Shown: positions 45 through 27,401 of the stretch, in pieces | Numbering within the stretch: position 1 is the first letter of the stretch | Layout of the letters: every line of letters starts with the position of its first letter | Origin: Candidatus Methanoperedens sp. | GTDB lineage: Archaea > Halobacteriota > Methanosarcinia > Methanosarcinales > Methanoperedenaceae | Assembly (NCBI GenBank): GCA_026552855.1 | Contig: JAPMTX010000164.1 | Coordinates: forward strand, 1,216-33,215 | Length of the DNA: 32,000 bases | Direction of reading: 5' to 3' | Program-made: the position numbers and the translations under genes | Notes under the pieces: model-generated | The model's input: only the letters and a program-made list of their open reading frames with translations | What the model was told of the DNA's origin: nothing | The model's database searches: none

Positions 45-1010
45 TTATATCACCGTAACGTTAGATACCGCAAACACATCTCCCGATTGGTTGCCAAAGG
101 TCTCTACCCTTGCTCTGTAAGCCGTGCGAGTTCCGTTAATTGTTATATTGTGTCCATCTGATGTCGTTTCTATGCTTATGGCAGCGGGTCGCGTCCAGTT
201 TATCGAGACTGCTATGGCAGTATGGCAGGCAATACAATTATCACTGGTATTTTGTTCCATACCATACTTGATAAAAGCTTCATGGATAGTATCAGGCGTG
301 TTGACCAGGAACTGGGAATGGCAATCTGCACACTGGACGGTGGATGATGCGTGTGCTAATGTGCCCGGGGTAATTACCCCGGAGCCTGCACCTGTAAGAT
401 TGTCTTGTCCGTATCTGTCTGGGTTTACATTAATCTTTCTTGGATCAAGCATCTGGTATTGCGTTAATGGGTCTGTATCTTTTGGCGTCCCATTGTAGTA
501 TGTTTCCGTCTCGTTCGCATATGCGAAATTGTATAGTACGCCTGTCTCACCCAGGGTCATACTACCGGCGTATTGATTATTTGCATCGCGCAGTTGCACC
601 TGGTCATTTCCGGCGCCAGCCCACTGATCAATCGTAGTTTCACCTGGAATTGATTTTGGAAAATTTCCACTCTGTAGATTACTTATAGTAGTTGCAAGGA
701 CCCTGTACTGTATGTTCGTCGTGCTCAATGGCGTGACATTTACGTACAGTATTCTTTCGTAAGCAATATCACCGCTTGCATACTGTACACCTTTCTGGAC
801 ACGGTGGCAGTCTGCACAGGTAAAGTTGCTATGTATAAAACCTGTGTGGACTTCTATTTGCACATCTCCGTGGCACTTCTGACACGGTATCTGGGAACCG
901 ATCGCGCCTATGTTATAGTAACTGTGCTGACCGCTAAGAAGGGAAAGGGTATTCGGGATATACCATAAGGAAATCCCGAGCAGGGCGAACAGTACCCAGA
1001 GTATCTTCAT
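45..1010 (-). CDS. Tetraheme c-type cytochrome, 'LFAGQH' N-terminal family (321 aa from MKILWVLF...)
   Basis: Four CxxCH motifs (CQKCH, CADCH, CADCH, CIACH). An N-terminal hydrophobic segment is followed by PNTLSLLSGQH. I prefer the ATG at 1010 over the ORF-track start at 1049 because GGGAGTGAT (SD-like) sits directly upstream and the paralogue N-termini align from here. The C-terminal FGNQSG block is shared with the 425-aa paralogue. Confidence 0.85.
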   Translation of the reverse strand: MKILWVLFALLGISLWYIPNTLSLLSGQHSYYNIGAIGSQIPCQKCHGDVQIEVHTGFIHSNFTCADCHRVQKGVQYASGDIAYERILYVNVTPLSTTNIQYRVLATTISNLQSGNFPKSIPGETTIDQWAGAGNDQVQLRDANNQYAGSMTLGETGVLYNFAYANETETYYNGTPKDTDPLTQYQMLDPRKINVNPDRYGQDNLTGAGSGVITPGTLAHASSTVQCADCHSQFLVNTPDTIHEAFIKYGMEQNTSDNCIACHTAIAVSINWTRPAAISIETTSDGHNITINGTRTAYRARVETFGNQSGDVFAVSNVTVI

Positions 1011-1011
1011 A

Positions 1012-24188: not shown

Positions 24189-27100
24189 TCACCACGATGA
24201 ATAGTTTTTATCAGGATACGTATGGCAGTAGTTGCAATCTACCGGTTTGTTAAATCCATATGTGGCAATAGCCTTATTATATAAATTCCGGTCATGGCAT
24301 ATTGTACAGTCTGTAATATCTACAACTGATACCCCTCCGACTTTATAATTGCCAGGGTCTCCAGTTATGTTGTGCCTTTCCCGCAGGTTGTTCGGGTCCA
24401 GAACAGCATGGCAGTCCTCACAGGCTTTTCTTGCGCCGATATTGTTATGCCCCCCGGTATGGCAGCTCCTGCAGATGACATTACCGTGAGGACTTTCATT
24501 GAACATGGCGGAATTAACGAATCTCGCAGGAGCTGTCGGACTCCCGCTGCTGTTCATAACAGGATAGGAGAAGTGGCAGTCTTTGCAGTCCCTGGCTGTA
24601 ATATTATGTAAAAAGGCATCCATTGTCCCGTTACCCGGACCGATGCTGTGGCAGGTTTTACATGTAGAATCGTTGTAATCCGGCGTCAGGTTATGGTAGT
24701 AGAAACCTGGCATGGTATTTACCGCATAAGTCCCGTTCGTGATCTCAGGAGGAACTGGAAGGTTTGCCGATATAAATGTTGATGTCATATCTTCGTAACT
24801 CTTTCCTCCGTTCGAATATCCCCGGTAGTGGCAGCCTGCACACCAGTTGCTTGTATTTGTAATACTTGAATTGACTATATTGTTCCCTCTCCAGTTCCCG
24901 GGTCTGCCGAGAGCCGCTGCCTTATGCCTGGTATCATTGTGGCAGTAAATACAGGCTGTAATCTCTGAAGTGTTGTCCCAGTAGCCTGATGAGTTCCAGC
25001 GCGTTCCGTTGGAGAGATTGTCGCTGTGGTGCATTGGAGACGGTATCTTTGGAGGTGCCCTTGACAGGTTCGGATAAAACGCAGGGTCCTGGTGGCAGTT
25101 AATGCAGTTAACACCCGTGGAATTGCTTGTACTGTAATTCACATCTGACTGGACTGACTGGAGGTATTTAACAGGGTGGATATCCCCACTGCTGTTAAGA
25201 TGGCATTCCGTACAATTCACCGAATTATTGTGCTTCTGCCTGATGCCGGTAACCATTCCTGAGTAATTCGTTCCTCCGGTGTCGTTGCTGCCATGGCATG
25301 ACAGGCAGAATGTTGAGTTGGGAAGAGTAAGTGCAGGCTTGGTAAGAGTGGAGTTGTGTATCCAGCCTGAGTTGTGGCACCTGATACATCCCGGATTTGA
25401 GTTATTATAGCGCAGGCTGTGGTTAGAGATGTTACTGTTGTTTGAGTCCATCATTGCTACAGCGAACGCCGTGCTGGTATTTTTATGGCAGTATGCGCAG
25501 TCGGCAGCATTCCCCTGCCTGACCTGCGGGTCAGGAGCCCTGCTTCTGCCGTAGTGTGAGGGAAGTGAAAAGTTTGTACCATAATTATCGCCTGTATAAT
25601 CCACTTTCATCTCGGTCAGGTTGTGGCACATTATACATGAGGAAGAATTGTCAGAAGCATTTAAGGCTGCCTTTATACTGGTCCCGTTTATGAAATGCTG
25701 GCTCACGTTCGGGGCATTGCTGACATTACCATACGGTTTGCCTGTACCGTTGTGGCAGTCATAGCACTTATACGGGTTGCTGAACCGGCTGCCCATACTG
25801 TCGTTAGCCGGCTGGCTTCCGGCGGAATCATGGCATCCCCAGCATTTCTTGTTCTCGGCTGGTACCCCTGTTGAATTAGTCGCATTCCTGTTCAGGTTGG
25901 CATGGATAGCGCCGCTTGAGTTCATGGCTGAACTATTTACCTGGTGAAATGCAGACTTTCCTGTATTATGACAGTCTATGCAGTTCGGACCCGCAACGAA
26001 GGTTACATTATGCGGGTCACTCCCATGACAGGTTGTGCATTGCGTCCCCATATTATGAGTTATGCCTGAGTGGCAGGTCCTGCATACTGTAGCATCCAGG
26101 GTGTAGAGGGATTTTACATCGTGCTCCCGGTTATGGCACAGACCGCAGGCTACTGTTTTCCGGGTAGAATGCGTCGTGTTTTCGATGGAATCGGGAATGG
26201 TTGTATTGTTCAGGATTGATCCTGGTCTCGGATGGCAGGTTATACAATTCGGTTTAGTTATCAGACTGGTCAGGTTATTATGGCAGTCATTACATGTCGC
26301 GTTCAAATAATGTCTATCCAGACCGTAGCGCGGGGATAGGGCGTTTTGACCGGTCGTAATATCGCCGTGGCAGTTCACACATGCAAGAGCCGCATTTCCA
26401 CCTGACGAAGTTCTGTGGCAGTTGTTGCATTGTCCTGCCCGTGGATGCGCTACCCAATCGGGATAATGGAGACTATGGCAGTCCCCGCATTGAAGTGTTG
26501 AGGTAATGAAATTACCCGGATCAGGGTGTTCCACATATATCTGTGTGGTATCGAAGTGCTTTGGATGAACATATCCTGATTCGAATGTAGAAGGATAATT
26601 GTCTCCACCAGCACTGTGGCAGTTAGCGCAGCCCCATCTCAAGACGCTGAACTCTCCTGCAATATTGGGATAATCTGTTATTCTTATCACGTATCCGCCT
26701 TCATCCAGATAATCAGGCAGAACGAAGTCACCTGAATAAGGACCTGCACCGCTCAGGTTCGTTCTTCCTATCTCGCCGCCTGTGCTGTTGTAGATAACAA
26801 CTTCCAGCGAGAGACCCTGAACATAGCGTCCGCTAACGTTATTAAGAATTGCAGTGGATATGTTTACAGTCCTGAAGTTAGCAGGCGAGCCTGTCCATCC
26901 TGGTGGACTTACCATGTACTCCGAGGGACTTGTCCATACACCTGGTCTGAGAGTTACGAGAACGCTCGCTGGCACCGAATCATTGGCATTTGTAAAGTTC
27001 CAGCTCTCAGGCTTATAGTAGTAAGTGGTGTTTGCGGATAGACCTGACAACCTGATGCTCACATTGAATGTATTATTGTTCCAGATGCTCCAGCTCCCGT

Positions 27101-27401
27101 TCGTCAGATTATTGATATCTGTTTCACTCATACCATAATATACTCTGCTACTGCCGGGGATGTTGGTATCCCAGAAAATAAAAGAGCCGCTGGAAGTGGG
27201 TCCAGAGTTTGTCAGATTAGAAATGGATGGAGAAAAATAAGGGTTGGATGCGGCATTTACTCCATTTGTACCTGAATTGAAAAAAGGCGAGCCGGCGAGT
27301 ACCAGAAGAAGTACGGTTATGCCGGTAAGAAAACGGGCTGGAAGTTTTCCTCTATCAGAGGCAGCCATCAGCTTTATCAAATGCGAACCTGTCCTATCCA
27401 T
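24189..27401 (-). CDS. Giant secreted 26-heme cytochrome (1070 aa), mosaic of modules shared with the 569-aa and 2009-aa proteins
   Basis: I counted 26 CxxCH motifs by hand. The N-terminal ~476 aa are near-identical in stretches to the 569-aa protein. The middle ~450 aa align with the 12-heme module of the 2009-aa protein. The last four heme motifs form a unique C-terminal segment. Confidence 0.9.
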   Translation of the reverse strand: MDRTGSHLIKLMAASDRGKLPARFLTGITVLLLVLAGSPFFNSGTNGVNAASNPYFSPSISNLTNSGPTSSGSFIFWDTNIPGSSRVYYGMSETDINNLTNGSWSIWNNNTFNVSIRLSGLSANTTYYYKPESWNFTNANDSVPASVLVTLRPGVWTSPSEYMVSPPGWTGSPANFRTVNISTAILNNVSGRYVQGLSLEVVIYNSTGGEIGRTNLSGAGPYSGDFVLPDYLDEGGYVIRITDYPNIAGEFSVLRWGCANCHSAGGDNYPSTFESGYVHPKHFDTTQIYVEHPDPGNFITSTLQCGDCHSLHYPDWVAHPRAGQCNNCHRTSSGGNAALACVNCHGDITTGQNALSPRYGLDRHYLNATCNDCHNNLTSLITKPNCITCHPRPGSILNNTTIPDSIENTTHSTRKTVACGLCHNREHDVKSLYTLDATVCRTCHSGITHNMGTQCTTCHGSDPHNVTFVAGPNCIDCHNTGKSAFHQVNSSAMNSSGAIHANLNRNATNSTGVPAENKKCWGCHDSAGSQPANDSMGSRFSNPYKCYDCHNGTGKPYGNVSNAPNVSQHFINGTSIKAALNASDNSSSCIMCHNLTEMKVDYTGDNYGTNFSLPSHYGRSRAPDPQVRQGNAADCAYCHKNTSTAFAVAMMDSNNSNISNHSLRYNNSNPGCIRCHNSGWIHNSTLTKPALTLPNSTFCLSCHGSNDTGGTNYSGMVTGIRQKHNNSVNCTECHLNSSGDIHPVKYLQSVQSDVNYSTSNSTGVNCINCHQDPAFYPNLSRAPPKIPSPMHHSDNLSNGTRWNSSGYWDNTSEITACIYCHNDTRHKAAALGRPGNWRGNNIVNSSITNTSNWCAGCHYRGYSNGGKSYEDMTSTFISANLPVPPEITNGTYAVNTMPGFYYHNLTPDYNDSTCKTCHSIGPGNGTMDAFLHNITARDCKDCHFSYPVMNSSGSPTAPARFVNSAMFNESPHGNVICRSCHTGGHNNIGARKACEDCHAVLDPNNLRERHNITGDPGNYKVGGVSVVDITDCTICHDRNLYNKAIATYGFNKPVDCNYCHTYPDKNYSSW
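25970..27401. repeat. Right arm of the ~1.4-kb inverted repeat (partner 4512..5960)
   Basis: See the left arm. Identity is 95-98% in the spot-checked stretches, interrupted by a divergent patch around heme motifs 2-3. Confidence 0.8.

What the first reader, a model, noticed from the sequence alone, without database searches (positions are those of the whole stretch)
45..27401. A 27-kb multiheme-cytochrome island next to mcrA reads like a complete candidate extracellular electron-transfer conduit
Eleven genes carry about 130 heme-binding motifs by manual count. The parts could make a membrane-to-outside chain. One 12-heme protein has a single TM anchor and a NapC/NrfH-like quinol-dehydrogenase-type N-terminus (21950..22954). 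Seven small or medium secreted cytochromes carry 2-6 hemes. Three giant secreted cytochromes carry 12, about 50 and 26 hemes. A lipid-anchorable PGF-CTERM propeller and a glycosylation gene set sit in the middle. The island lies about 4 kb from the mcr operon end. This fits methane oxidation coupled to extracellular acceptors, as proposed for ANME-2d, but this gene order, module sharing and accessory content are not something I can map to a characterised system.
Basis: partly seen in the sequence, partly recalled or inferred. Interest (0 to 1): 0.8.

Follow-up and report, generated by a model that had tools for sequence, protein, structure and literature searches.

The report
Methanoperedens cytochrome-nanowire-type gene island
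This stretch of a methane-oxidising archaeon's chromosome really is packed with 131 heme-binding sites in 11 exported proteins, and five of them are relatives of a protein known to build conductive cytochrome filaments, which gives concrete candidates for the still-unseen "nanowires" of these archaea.

Summary
Eleven ORFs between 45 and 27401 carry 128 CxxCH and 3 Cx4CH motifs, against 0.7 expected by chance. The mcrA 3' end lies 3.9 kb away. The source is a Candidatus Methanoperedens MAG.

The interpretation as one complete conduit is only partly supported. Five small cytochromes with an "LFAGQH" N-terminus are homologues of AvECN, the Archaeoglobus veneficus extracellular cytochrome nanowire (PDB 8E5G; family profile E=1e-31). 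The four heme sites and four further His positions are conserved.

The island is a mosaic of separately conserved modules:
- a triad of 12-heme membrane-anchored cytochrome, ECN-like tetraheme and 152-aa single-pass protein, linked in 12 of 14 Methanoperedens genome loci;
- a cassette of 5-heme ECN, hexaheme, membrane protein and 4-heme ECN, also present in M. nitroreducens, where the 5-heme orthologue is the second most expressed multiheme cytochrome, and on a viral contig;
- giant modular cytochromes;
- a PGF-CTERM propeller with glycosylation genes.

The 12-heme N-terminus is NrfH/NapC-like only below family thresholds. No b-cytochrome, NrfD or S-layer module is present. Adjacency to mcrA is confined to a subclade. 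Filament formation is inferred, not shown.

The parts
45..1049 (-). ECN-like tetraheme cytochrome. The probable true start is the ATG at 1010. It has a ~130-aa insertion between hemes 2 and 3.
   Evidence: 4 CxxCH. phmmer against PDB 8E5G gives E=1.6e-16. The GQH His, four heme motifs and three further His align with AvECN. It is 70-76% identical over the two aligned blocks to the 194-aa 4-heme gene of M. nitroreducens L034.
1012..1512 (-). 166-aa single-pass membrane protein of the left-arm cassette
   Evidence: One N-terminal TM segment. No Pfam or NCBIfam family. A homologue sits at the same position in L034 (50% identity) and on viral contig L117 (41%).
1509..2090 (-). Small hexaheme c7/c3-type cytochrome, paralogue 1
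   Evidence: 6 CxxCH. Pfam Cytochrome_C7 E=3e-8. 65% identical to 2186-2782. 58% identical to the L034 199-aa 6-heme gene.
2186..2782 (-). Small hexaheme c7/c3-type cytochrome, paralogue 2
   Evidence: 6 CxxCH with the same spacing as paralogue 1. Pfam c3_2/C7.
2897..4174 (-). ECN-like pentaheme cytochrome, candidate major filament subunit
   Evidence: 5 CxxCH. The AvECN-type N-terminus and all four core heme sites are kept, plus one extra heme. 53% identical over its full length to the L034 403-aa 5-heme gene. By gene order that gene is Methanoperedens_00391 of PMC10542353, with TPM 5016-15954.
4512..6221 (+). 12-heme cytochrome (569 aa) with an N-terminal heme-free ~250 aa that includes an FN3-like domain
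   Evidence: 12 CxxCH, all after residue 257. 67% identical over its full length to the first 568 aa of the 26-heme protein. Its C-terminus is related to that of the 50-heme protein. Pfam Pur_ac_phosph_N at residues 63-135.
6315..12344 (+). Giant 50-heme cytochrome (2009 aa) built of repeated multiheme modules
   Evidence: 48 CxxCH + 2 Cx4CH, 100 Cys, 100 His. Three overlapping stretches (327-1134, 692-1550, 1243-2002) each match residues 245/258 to 1013/1068 of the 26-heme protein. Pfam MtrC/MtrF II-IV domain E=7.5e-52. A ~50% identical relative sits next to the propeller in L035.
12534..13805 (+). PGF-CTERM beta-propeller surface protein
   Evidence: N-terminal signal segment and C-terminal PGF + TM + KK tail. 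Pfam DUF5122/SBBP propeller, with PGF-CTERM just under threshold. 6.6 tandem 156-bp units. Orthologues lie next to the glycosylation genes in L034, L035 and L036.
13832..14731 (+). GT2 glycosyltransferase
   Evidence: Pfam Glycos_transf_2 E=6e-29. Weak AglJ/AglG-like NCBIfam hits.
14743..16806 (-). Polytopic PMT/GT39-like (GT-C) glycosyltransferase, Agl23-like
   Evidence: Pfam PMT_2 and PMT. NCBIfam Agl23 E=5.7e-13, below cut-off. Multiple TM segments. 73-78% identical in L006, L009, L010, L035, L036.
16772..17788 (-). GFO/IDH/MocA sugar dehydrogenase
   Evidence: Pfam. NCBIfam archaeal UDP-GlcNAc 3-dehydrogenase E=3.6e-28, below cut-off.
17796..18770 (-). DUF362 protein
   Evidence: Pfam DUF362 E=2.5e-33. 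Conserved in the syntenic loci.
18767..20514 (-). Two integral membrane proteins (90 aa, 3 TM; 492 aa, about 10 TM) of unknown function
   Evidence: Hydropathy. No significant family. Syntenic in L006, L009, L010, L035, L036, L037.
20570..21028 (+). 152-aa single-pass membrane protein, companion of ECN-like genes
   Evidence: One TM segment. A homologue lies next to the ECN-like/12-heme pair in 12 of 14 genome loci. It also lies next to ECN-like genes in distant metagenome loci L038, L042, L048, L061.
21074..21754 (-). ECN-like tetraheme cytochrome (226 aa), core triad member
   Evidence: phmmer against 8E5G E=8e-15. Family profile E=1.3e-31 over nearly the full length. Four CxxCH plus His 31, 65, 112 and 137 align with AvECN.
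21950..22954 (+). 12-heme cytochrome with one N-terminal TM helix and a weakly NrfH/NapC-like N-terminus
   Evidence: 12 CxxCH, 23 His, TM at residues 1-27. TIGR03153 NrfH E=6.7e-8 for residues 10-125, below cut-off. PF03264 matches 29 of 39 family members. The family is almost confined to Methanoperedens. Best PDB matches are MtrA (6R2Q_A, identity from my own knowledge), GSU1996 and NrfB.
22951..23733 (-). Divergent ECN-like cytochrome (3 CxxCH + 1 Cx4CH; heme-2 site lost)
   Evidence: In an operon with the 26-heme gene. 80% identical in L006, L009, L010, L037 and 37-38% in L023 and L024.
23741..24184 (-). Truncated ECN-like cytochrome (2 CxxCH + a conserved CICH)
   Evidence: The CICH block is identical in 8 orthologues down to 37% overall identity.
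24189..27401 (-). 26-heme cytochrome (1070 aa) with an N-terminal FN3-like heme-free region
   Evidence: 26 CxxCH, 52 Cys. Pfam. 79-86% identical orthologues in L006, L009, L010, L037.
31287..31976 (-). 3' part of mcrA (context only, not part of the system)
   Evidence: Pfam MCR_alpha E=2.3e-53. 85% identical and syntenic in L009.

Best explanation
The window is chromosomal DNA of a Candidatus Methanoperedens (ANME-2d) archaeon. It holds a composite locus for extracellular, glycosylated multiheme cytochromes, organised around AvECN-type (archaeal cytochrome-nanowire) subunits. It is not a single linear conduit.

Shown:
- Five small cytochromes are homologues of the A. veneficus filament protein AvECN. 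Three of them keep all four heme sites and the four further His positions that align with AvECN.
- Two modules containing them are conserved as units. One is the triad of 152-aa membrane protein, tetraheme ECN and membrane-anchored 12-heme cytochrome. The other is the cassette of pentaheme ECN, hexaheme c7-type cytochrome, 166-aa membrane protein and tetraheme ECN.
- The three large cytochromes are built from one shared repeat module.
- Exported proteins are sequon-rich, and a protein-glycosylation gene set with a PGF-CTERM propeller lies between the two arms.

Inferred mechanism:
- Electrons leave the menaquinone pool either through quinol:cytochrome c oxidoreductases encoded elsewhere or, less certainly, through the NrfH-like 12-heme anchor.
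- Small hexaheme cytochromes relay them in the space under the S-layer.
- ECN-type subunits polymerise into insulated heme filaments. The pentaheme gene is the likely major subunit, because its M. nitroreducens orthologue is 20-370 times more highly expressed (TPM) than its operon neighbours.
- The degenerate 2-heme and 3+1-heme paralogues, encoded with the 26-heme protein, may act as minor or adaptor subunits.
- The giant cytochromes extend the redox surface towards minerals, electrodes or partner cells.
- The glycosylation genes and the lipid-anchored propeller serve maturation or assembly, as the analogous genes are thought to do in Geobacter omcE nanowire clusters.
For: - Source organism: exact proteins carry NCBI locus tags OIN66_15620 and OIN66_15660 of a Ca. 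Methanoperedens sp. MAG.
- AvECN homology. Conserved heme and His positions. Foldseek's top hit with the poor model is 8E5G.
- Triad linkage despite rearranged gene order: 12 of 14 species loci.
- The 152-aa companion also lies next to ECN-like genes in distant metagenome loci.
- Left-arm cassette in M. nitroreducens L034 and on IMG/VR contig L117.
- Expression and SignalP calls for orthologues Methanoperedens_00388, 00391, 00392 and 00394 in PMC10542353.
- Sequon enrichment only in the exported proteins.
- Module sharing among the large cytochromes.
- Glycosylation genes.
- Geobacter omcE clusters hold two multiheme cytochromes, beta-propeller lipoproteins, the nanowire subunit and GT2/4/39 genes (bioRxiv 10.1101/2025.10.22.684050).
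- Methanoperedenaceae are already noted to hold AvECN homologues, and filaments there are still unobserved (PMC13046784).
Against: - No filament has been seen in Methanoperedens, and polymerisation cannot be read from sequence.
- The AlphaFold model of the ECN-like protein is poor (pLDDT 55), so fold identity is untested.
- The ECN family also gives weak NrfH and NapC/NirT hits. A membrane-anchored, non-polymerising role is therefore not excluded.
- The modules are unlinked in other genomes, so functional unity of the 27 kb is unproven.
- The mapping to the published expression data rests on gene order, heme counts and annotations, not on sequence identity to the study's own gene models.
Confidence: 0.6

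Rival explanations
1. One reading: the island is one complete membrane-to-outside conduit. The 12-heme single-TM cytochrome oxidises menaquinol like NapC, NrfH or CymA and feeds the small and then the giant cytochromes.
For: - A TM helix is followed within 7 residues by heme 1.
- NrfH TIGR03153 gives E=6.7e-8 over residues 10-125. PF03264 hits 29 of 39 family members, best 4.9e-9.
- Some homologues are named NapC/NirT family by NCBI.
- The gene is tightly linked to an ECN-like gene in many genomes.
Against: - Scores are far below the curated cut-offs.
- The profile and the isolated N-terminal domain find MtrA, NrfB and GSU1996 but no NrfH or CymA in the PDB.
- There are 12 hemes instead of 4-5, and the first motif is CARCHVS, without the Met of the CxxCHxM motif that I recall for NrfH heme 1 (from memory).
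- Methanoperedens already has five other candidate MK:cytochrome c oxidoreductase cluster types, all with b-cytochrome or NrfD subunits (PMC7327174), and none is in the window.
- No S-layer-domain cytochrome is present.
- The island's parts are dispersed in other genomes.
Confidence: 0.2
2. The ECN-like tetrahemes are not filament subunits. They are membrane-anchored NapC/NrfH-type tetraheme cytochromes whose N-terminal helix is an uncleaved anchor, acting as quinol dehydrogenases or short-range relays.
For: - The ECN-like 226-aa protein hits NrfH TIGR03153 at E=1.6e-6.
- Some family members carry precomputed PF03264 hits or NapC/NirT names.
- The stretch right after the hydrophobic helix (P21...F27, Q30, H31) is invariant, which is unusual for a mere signal-peptide c-region.
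- MmcX of Met12 is described as having a membrane-binding site (PMC11176372).
Against: - The solved homologue AvECN is an extracellular filament obtained from cell-surface appendage preparations (PMC12954529).
- SignalP-6 called cleavable signal peptides for the M. nitroreducens orthologues 00391 and 00394, and PSORTb placed 00391 outside the cell (PMC10542353 supplement).
- The very high expression of the 5-heme orthologue fits a structural subunit.
- Only 220 of the 262 residues of AvECN are modelled in 8E5G. This would fit loss of the N-terminal segment, but it is not proof.
Confidence: 0.15
3. The 27 kb is an accretion hot spot of laterally mobile cytochrome genes with no joint function. 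Proximity of the modules and of mcrA is historical accident.
For: - The left arm and the triad are unlinked in other genomes.
- The left-arm cassette occurs on a viral contig (L117). Cytochromes borne by viruses and Borgs of Methanoperedens are reported (bioRxiv 10.1101/2023.08.02.551345).
- Multiheme cytochrome families are poorly conserved across the family and prone to lateral transfer (PMC7327174).
- Giant cytochromes are replaced by unrelated genes in L034.
Against: - The right arm, including the glycosylation genes, the 26-heme operon and mcrA adjacency, is conserved at 71-89% amino-acid identity in Mnv1 (L009). LFW-280_3_1 (L010) and two metagenome contigs (L006, L037) keep as much of it as they cover.
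- Giant cytochrome, propeller and glycosylation genes are again linked in L035.
- Linkage of the triad survives changes in gene order.
Confidence: 0.2

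Closest known systems
AvECN, extracellular cytochrome nanowire of Archaeoglobus veneficus (F2KMU8, PDB 8E5G; Baquero et al. 2023, as cited in PMC12954529 and PMC13046784)
   Same: Homologous over nearly the whole length (profile E=1.3e-31). 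It has the same N-terminal hydrophobic segment with L-F-x-G-Q-H, the same four CxxCH positions and the same four additional His positions. It is archaeal and exported.
   Different: The window holds five paralogues rather than one, at most about 40% identical to each other in pairwise BLAST. Their heme counts are 4, 4, 5, 3+1 and 2 plus a CxCH. Two carry 130-150-aa insertions. They are linked to a 12-heme anchor, hexahemes, giant cytochromes and glycosylation genes. Filament formation is untested here.
Geobacter/Desulfuromonadia omcE nanowire gene clusters (bioRxiv 10.1101/2025.10.22.684050)
   Same: The same kinds of parts sit together: a tetraheme nanowire-type subunit, further multiheme cytochromes, a lipid-anchored beta-propeller, and GT2 plus GT39-type glycosyltransferases with sugar-modifying enzymes.
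   Different: This is an analogy, not a homology. The ECN profile matches OmcE (7TFS) only at E=0.003. There is no outer-membrane beta-barrel, since archaea lack an outer membrane. The propeller is anchored by PGF-CTERM rather than a lipobox.
Published Methanoperedens EET clusters: OmcZ-like/OzpA with 37- and 15-heme cytochromes, and NrfD/FeS/b-cytochrome with 7-heme cytochromes (PMC10874420); MK:cytochrome c oxidoreductase groups 1-5 (PMC7327174)
   Same: Same organism group, same presumed role, and the same combination of small and very large cytochromes.
   Different: The window has no 8-heme OmcZ-like protein, no subtilisin-type protease, and no NrfD, FeS or b-cytochrome gene. The gene content is different.
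ANME large multiheme cytochromes of types A, B and C (PMC9012536)
   Same: Giant archaeal cytochromes with tens of hemes and occasional Cx4CH-type variant motifs.
   Different: No S-layer (DUF1608) domain, no C-terminal TM helix, and no peptidase-M6 or pectin-lyase domain was detected. Instead there is an N-terminal FN3-like heme-free region.
NapC/NirT/NrfH/CymA quinol dehydrogenases
   Same: An N-terminal TM helix is followed closely by heme 1. There is weak profile similarity over the first ~125-180 residues of the 12-heme protein.
   Different: 12 hemes, scores below family thresholds, no hit to solved members, and no partner reductase.

Membership tests
AvECN-type extracellular cytochrome nanowire subunit (PDB 8E5G) | Sequence homology over the whole subunit | tested here: met
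   phmmer E=8e-15 and 1.6e-16. The 49-sequence family profile gives E=1.3e-31, covering profile positions 3-203 of 210 and chain residues 4-229 of 262.
AvECN-type extracellular cytochrome nanowire subunit (PDB 8E5G) | Four CxxCH at the conserved positions | tested here: met
   Met for 21074-21754, 45-1049 and 2897-4174 (the last has one extra heme). Not met for 22951-23733, where heme 2 is lost and a Cx4CH is added. Not met for 23741-24184, which is truncated and has CICH at the heme-2 position.
AvECN-type extracellular cytochrome nanowire subunit (PDB 8E5G) | Four further His positions, as needed for bis-His ligation of four hemes | tested here: met
   His 31, 65, 112 and 137 of the 226-aa protein align with His 29, 61, 105 and 162 of the AvECN stretch (chain residues 4-229) reconstructed; chain numbering is 3 higher. 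His 31, 65 and 137 are invariant in 49 homologues. Which of them ligate hemes, and whether across subunits, cannot be read from sequence.
AvECN-type extracellular cytochrome nanowire subunit (PDB 8E5G) | Same fold and heme-chain geometry | tested here: inconclusive
   The AlphaFold2 model has pLDDT 54.8. Foldseek ranks 8E5G first, but at E=0.012 and TM 0.18.
AvECN-type extracellular cytochrome nanowire subunit (PDB 8E5G) | Polymerises into an extracellular filament | not testable with these tools
   This needs cryo-EM or biochemistry. Filaments have not yet been visualised in Methanoperedenaceae (PMC13046784).
NapC/NirT/NrfH quinol dehydrogenase (for the 12-heme protein 21950-22954) | Match to the family model above the curated threshold | tested here: not met
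   PF03264 scores 19.1 bits against 24.1. TIGR03153 scores 32.7 against 134.2. However, 29 of 39 homologues match PF03264 at E<=0.01, best 4.9e-9.
NapC/NirT/NrfH quinol dehydrogenase (for the 12-heme protein 21950-22954) | N-terminal TM helix with heme 1 close to the membrane | tested here: met
   Hydrophobic segment at residues 1-27 and first CxxCH at residue 32. The model shows a helix at residues 5-25.
NapC/NirT/NrfH quinol dehydrogenase (for the 12-heme protein 21950-22954) | Tetra- or pentaheme architecture, similarity to solved members | tested here: not met
   12 hemes in 334 aa. No NrfH or CymA appears among PDB hits of the profile or of residues 1-181. The best hits are MtrA (6R2Q_A), GSU1996 and NrfB.
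NapC/NirT/NrfH quinol dehydrogenase (for the 12-heme protein 21950-22954) | Quinol oxidation activity and quinol-site residues | not testable with these tools
   This needs biochemistry or complementation of a cymA mutant.
Methanoperedenaceae MK:cytochrome c oxidoreductase clusters, groups 1-5 (PMC7327174) | A b-type cytochrome, bc-type or NrfD membrane subunit (with FeS protein) next to the cytochromes | tested here: not met
   No such Pfam family is found in any of the 25 ORFs.
ANME S-layer multiheme cytochromes, types A and B (PMC9012536) | [quoted passage not shown] | tested here: not met
   No S-layer-domain Pfam hit. The only hydrophobic segments are N-terminal.
OmcZ/OzpA nanowire cluster (PMC10874420) | 8-heme OmcZ homologue next to a serine protease | tested here: not met
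   No 8-heme ORF and no peptidase domain in the window.
PGF-CTERM/archaeosortase substrates (propeller 12534-13805) | C-terminal PGF motif, TM helix and basic tail | tested here: met
   The sequence ends ...SIPGFDIITTAVGLLAAVYILDKLKK. Pfam PGF-CTERM scores 17.2 bits against 18.8. The orthologue is named PGF-CTERM by UniRef. No archaeosortase gene is in the window.

The most novel reading that the evidence does not exclude
The island encodes a hierarchical archaeal cytochrome-nanowire system comparable to a pilus operon.
- A membrane-anchored NrfH-derived 12-heme base.
- A highly expressed major ECN subunit.
- Degenerate 'minor' ECN paralogues that couple the filament to giant cytochromes as adaptors or tips. 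One of them may carry a previously undescribed CxCH heme site.
- Dedicated companion membrane proteins, a lipid-anchored propeller and a private glycosylation pathway.
- Cassettes that move between chromosomes and viruses.
Probability: 0.15. Interest if true: 0.8.

Novelty: new variant of a known kind. Interest (0 to 1): 0.55.

Why it matters
How Methanoperedens passes electrons from methane to minerals, electrodes or partner cells is an open question. A 2026 review lists 'cytochrome nanowire versus conductive archaellum' as unresolved and notes that no filament has been seen (PMC13046784).

This locus names concrete candidates:
- an AvECN-type pentaheme whose M. nitroreducens orthologue is among the most expressed cytochromes;
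- a conserved triad with a 12-heme anchor;
- accessory genes that mirror those of Geobacter nanowire clusters.

That turns the question into specific experiments: cryo-EM threading, MS of sheared fractions, complementation of cymA, and AlphaFold3 with hemes. It also warns that cytochrome 'islands' in these genomes are mosaics, and that proximity to mcrA is not evidence of coupling.

Tried and rejected
- **Exact look-up of the 12-heme protein:** not on record. The Logan assembly of the same contig calls two short opposite-strand ORFs there instead.
- **NrfH test:** the isolated N-terminal 181 aa searched against the PDB gave no NrfH or CymA hit.
- **The two small membrane proteins:** I tested whether the 166-aa and 152-aa proteins are homologous. 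BLASTP gave E=2.7, so this was rejected.
- **Literature gaps:** Baquero et al. 2023 (PMC10330847) is not held, so AvECN's own gene neighbourhood and mature N-terminus could not be checked. A search for orthogroup OG0000252 in the PMC7327174 supplements found nothing.
- **RNA and tRNA:** Rfam and tRNA scans of the window found nothing.
- **Borg origin considered and rejected:** GC is about 0.45 (compared with values I recall for Borgs and for Methanoperedens chromosomes). The window is syntenic with the chromosomal contig of M. nitroreducens Mnv1, including mcrA. The only tandem arrays are the propeller repeats and one 21-bp repeat.
- **mcrA adjacency as functional coupling, rejected:** it is shared only with L009.

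Full report
**1. Observation**

All ORFs of 80 aa or more were listed, and heme c motifs were counted in the 25 non-nested ORFs chosen from that list. Eleven ORFs between 45 and 27401 carry 128 CxxCH and 3 Cx4CH motifs, 131 in all.
- seven proteins with 2-6 hemes;
- one 334-aa 12-heme protein;
- three large proteins with 12, 50 and 26 hemes.

Residue shuffling of the same proteins gives 0.66 motifs on average. The other 14 ORFs (4213 aa) have none. All 264 cysteines of the eleven proteins lie in CxxCH, Cx4CH or one CxCH.

Each cytochrome has a single N-terminal hydrophobic segment. This is a hydropathy segment in ten of them and a signal-peptide-like N-terminus in 1509-2090. N-glycosylation sequons are about 2-3 times the number expected in the cytochromes and the propeller, but not in the cytoplasmic enzymes.

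Pfam confirms the remaining parts:
- the beta-propeller with a PGF-CTERM tail;
- a GT2 and a PMT/GT39-like glycosyltransferase;
- a GFO/IDH/MocA dehydrogenase and a DUF362 protein;
- the C-terminal domain of McrA at 31287-31976, 3.9 kb from the island.

**2. Source**

Two window proteins are identical to proteins of an NCBI MAG of Candidatus Methanoperedens sp. (locus tags OIN66_15620 and OIN66_15660, contig of 33,216 bp). GC is about 0.45. Synteny with M. nitroreducens Mnv1 extends into mcrA. This is therefore chromosomal DNA, not a Borg.

**3. What the small cytochromes are**

Five of the seven small cytochromes share an N-terminus made of a hydrophobic segment followed by (A/S)LFAGQH(S/T)(F/Y)YN.

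Two of them match one PDB entry, 8E5G, at E=8e-15 and 1.6e-16. [quoted passage not shown]

A profile of 49 Methanoperedens-type homologues matches it at E=1.3e-31 over almost the whole length. In that family the four CxxCH, the His of GQH and two further His are invariant.

Aligned with AvECN:
- the proteins at 21074-21754, 45-1049 and 2897-4174 keep all four heme sites and all four additional His positions;
- the protein at 2897-4174 adds a fifth heme;
- two of them carry large insertions;
- the proteins at 22951-23733 and 23741-24184 are degenerate. One has lost the heme-2 site and gained a Cx4CH. The other is truncated and has CICH where heme 2 should be.

The family is diverse, with 316 clusters at 50% identity scoring E<=1e-10. 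Published work already notes AvECN homologues in Methanoperedenaceae, ANME-1, ANME-2, Syntropharchaeales and a Methanocellales archaeon. I found no description of their gene context in Methanoperedens.

The structural test failed for technical reasons. The model's pLDDT is 55. Foldseek ranks 8E5G first, but not significantly.

**4. The 12-heme protein**

Its family of about 50 clusters is essentially confined to Methanoperedens. It has one N-terminal helix, and heme 1 lies seven residues after it.

Evidence for an NrfH/NapC-like N-terminus:
- NCBIfam NrfH matches residues 10-125 at E=6.7e-8.
- Pfam NapC/NirT matches 29 of 39 family members.

Evidence against membership:
- Every score is below the curated cut-off.
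- The family profile finds MtrA (6R2Q chain A, which I know as MtrA although the table labels it otherwise), GSU1996 and NrfB in the PDB, and no NrfH or CymA.
- The isolated N-terminal domain finds nothing relevant.

The NapC/NrfH-like description is a detectable but weak resemblance. The quinol-dehydrogenase role is an inference.

**5. Synteny: a mosaic of modules**

*(a) The triad.* A scan of species-representative genomes with the 12-heme profile returned 14 Methanoperedens-lineage loci with orthologues at 50% identity or more (one is an unclassified Methanosarcinales MAG). In 12 of the 14 an ECN-like tetraheme lies beside it. In 12 of the 14 a homologue of the 152-aa single-pass protein does too. 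This holds even where the order is inverted, as in L011 and L015. The 152-aa family also sits next to ECN-like genes in distant metagenome loci L038, L042, L048 and L061.

*(b) The right arm.* This runs from the GT-C glycosyltransferase through the 26-heme operon. It is conserved at 71-89% amino-acid identity in M. nitroreducens Mnv1 (L009), where it continues through the radical-SAM gene into mcrA. LFW-280_3_1 (L010) and the metagenome contigs L006 and L037 keep as much of it as they cover. Elsewhere the triad sits among housekeeping genes.

*(c) The left-arm cassette.* Its order is 5-heme ECN, hexaheme, 166-aa membrane protein, 4-heme ECN. It recurs in M. nitroreducens GCA_030069165.1 (L034), a few kb from the propeller orthologue and glycosylation genes, but without the giant cytochromes. 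It also recurs on an IMG/VR viral contig (L117).

*(d) Giant cytochrome, propeller and glycosylation genes.* In L035 a relative of the 50-heme protein, the propeller and the glycosylation genes are linked again.

*(e) The large cytochromes.* They share modules. The 569-aa protein is 67% identical to the first 568 residues of the 26-heme protein. The 50-heme protein is built of repeats of the 26-heme core.

**6. Expression of orthologues**

Gene order, heme counts and annotations in L034 match Methanoperedens_00388 to 00396 of Zhang et al. 2023 one for one. The run is: 5-heme, acylphosphatase-like, DUF2283, 5-heme, 6-heme, non-heme, 4-heme, 490-aa protein, signal peptidase.
- The orthologue of window 2897-4174 (00391) is the second most expressed multiheme cytochrome of that community: TPM 15954 on iron, 5104 on the electrode and 5016 on nitrate. 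It is predicted extracellular with a cleavable signal peptide.
- Its neighbours 00392 and 00394 are 20-370 times lower.
- The paper reports 00388 as 44-fold up and 00391 as 6.7-fold up on electrodes.

This fits a major structural subunit with accessory genes. The mapping is inferred from order and content, not from the study's sequences.

**7. Accessory genes**

- The GT2 gene gives weak AglJ/AglG-type hits.
- The polytopic PMT/GT39-like protein resembles Agl23.
- The dehydrogenase resembles archaeal UDP-GlcNAc 3-dehydrogenase.

All three scores are below equivalog cut-offs. Together with the sequon enrichment they suggest a dedicated protein-glycosylation set.

A recent preprint reports that Geobacter-type omcE nanowire clusters always hold two multiheme cytochromes, two beta-propeller lipoproteins and the nanowire subunit. 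In freshwater genera these are followed by GT2, GT4 and GT39 glycosylation genes. The window has the same kinds of parts around an unrelated nanowire-type subunit. This is an analogy, not a homology.

**8. What is missing**

The window has none of the following:
- a b-type cytochrome, NrfD or FeS protein, which are the membrane modules of all five published Methanoperedenaceae MK:cytochrome c oxidoreductase cluster types;
- an OmcZ/OzpA pair;
- an S-layer-domain cytochrome;
- cytochrome maturation genes.

A complete conduit is therefore not demonstrated.

**9. Verdict**

The best reading is a composite locus for exported, glycosylated multiheme cytochromes built around AvECN-type nanowire subunits (confidence about 0.6). 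Filament formation is the main untested step, and a quinol-oxidase role for the 12-heme protein is a minority possibility.

Against what is known, this is a new variant of known kinds (ANME-2d cytochrome clusters and archaeal ECN nanowires). It is not among the clusters described so far. Its value is that it names specific candidates for the unresolved question of long-range electron transfer in Methanoperedens.

Noticed in passing
window 23741-24184 (-), residues 60-73 of the 147-aa protein; orthologues in L006, L009, L010, L023, L024, L031, L037: A C-I-C-H (CxCH) sequence sits where the AvECN family has its heme-2 CxxCH. The block H[RS]NAGCICHGY[NS]PN is identical in all eight full-length orthologues, down to 37% overall identity. 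Its two Cys are the only ones in the 11 cytochromes outside CxxCH/Cx4CH motifs. This may be a one-residue-spacer heme c site. I found no literature on such a motif.
   Followed up: partly
L117 6001-9117 (IMG/VR contig IMGVR_UViG_3300020045_010174, 74 kb): A contig classed as viral carries the left-arm cassette: a 5-heme ECN-like gene (46% identical to window 2897-4174), a 5-heme small cytochrome, a homologue of the 166-aa membrane protein (41%) and a short ECN-like gene. The cassette therefore appears to be mobile. This agrees with a preprint on Methanoperedens viruses.
   Followed up: partly
window 12643-13675: The propeller gene consists of 6.6 tandem copies of a 156-bp (52-aa) unit at 77% DNA identity. 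The blades are unusually similar to each other.
   Followed up: no
window 27727-31184: Four genes lie between the island and mcrA: a 101-aa protein with a desulforedoxin-like CxxCG...CC end, a 723-aa B12-binding radical-SAM protein with a C-terminal PqqD-like peptide-recognition domain (best NCBIfam: RiPP-type C-methyltransferase; weak to the MCR glutamine C-methyltransferase), a 105-aa protein and a DnaJ-type zinc-finger protein. All four are conserved in the same order next to mcrA in Mnv1 (L009). They may be involved in post-translational modification of MCR.
   Followed up: partly
window 21950-22954 (+); L001 8469-9470; L008 3328-4329: The intact 12-heme gene is not called in the Logan assembly of the same contig, where two short ORFs on the opposite strand are called instead. 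Its exact product is not on record. Automated cytochrome censuses may miss this family.
   Followed up: partly
L052, L056, L061, L063, L069, L077 (metagenome loci): In other, probably non-Methanoperedens lineages, ECN-like genes are followed by a 240-256-aa protein with 3-4 TM segments. They are often followed also by a protein with the ECN N-terminus fused to 7-11 hemes and by a protein with 6-7 TM segments. This is a different accessory set from the one in the window.
   Followed up: no
window 21074-21754 (-) and family A2: The AvECN-type family itself gives weak NrfH and NapC/NirT matches (TIGR03153 E=1.6e-6; some members carry PF03264 hits or NapC/NirT names). This hints that this nanowire subunit family derives from membrane-anchored tetraheme quinol dehydrogenases.
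   Followed up: no
L006 1101-2597, L010, L035 7491-8987, L036 5909-7339: Syntenic loci carry an extra B12-binding radical-SAM gene between the GT2 and the PMT-like gene. This gene is absent from the window.
   Followed up: no
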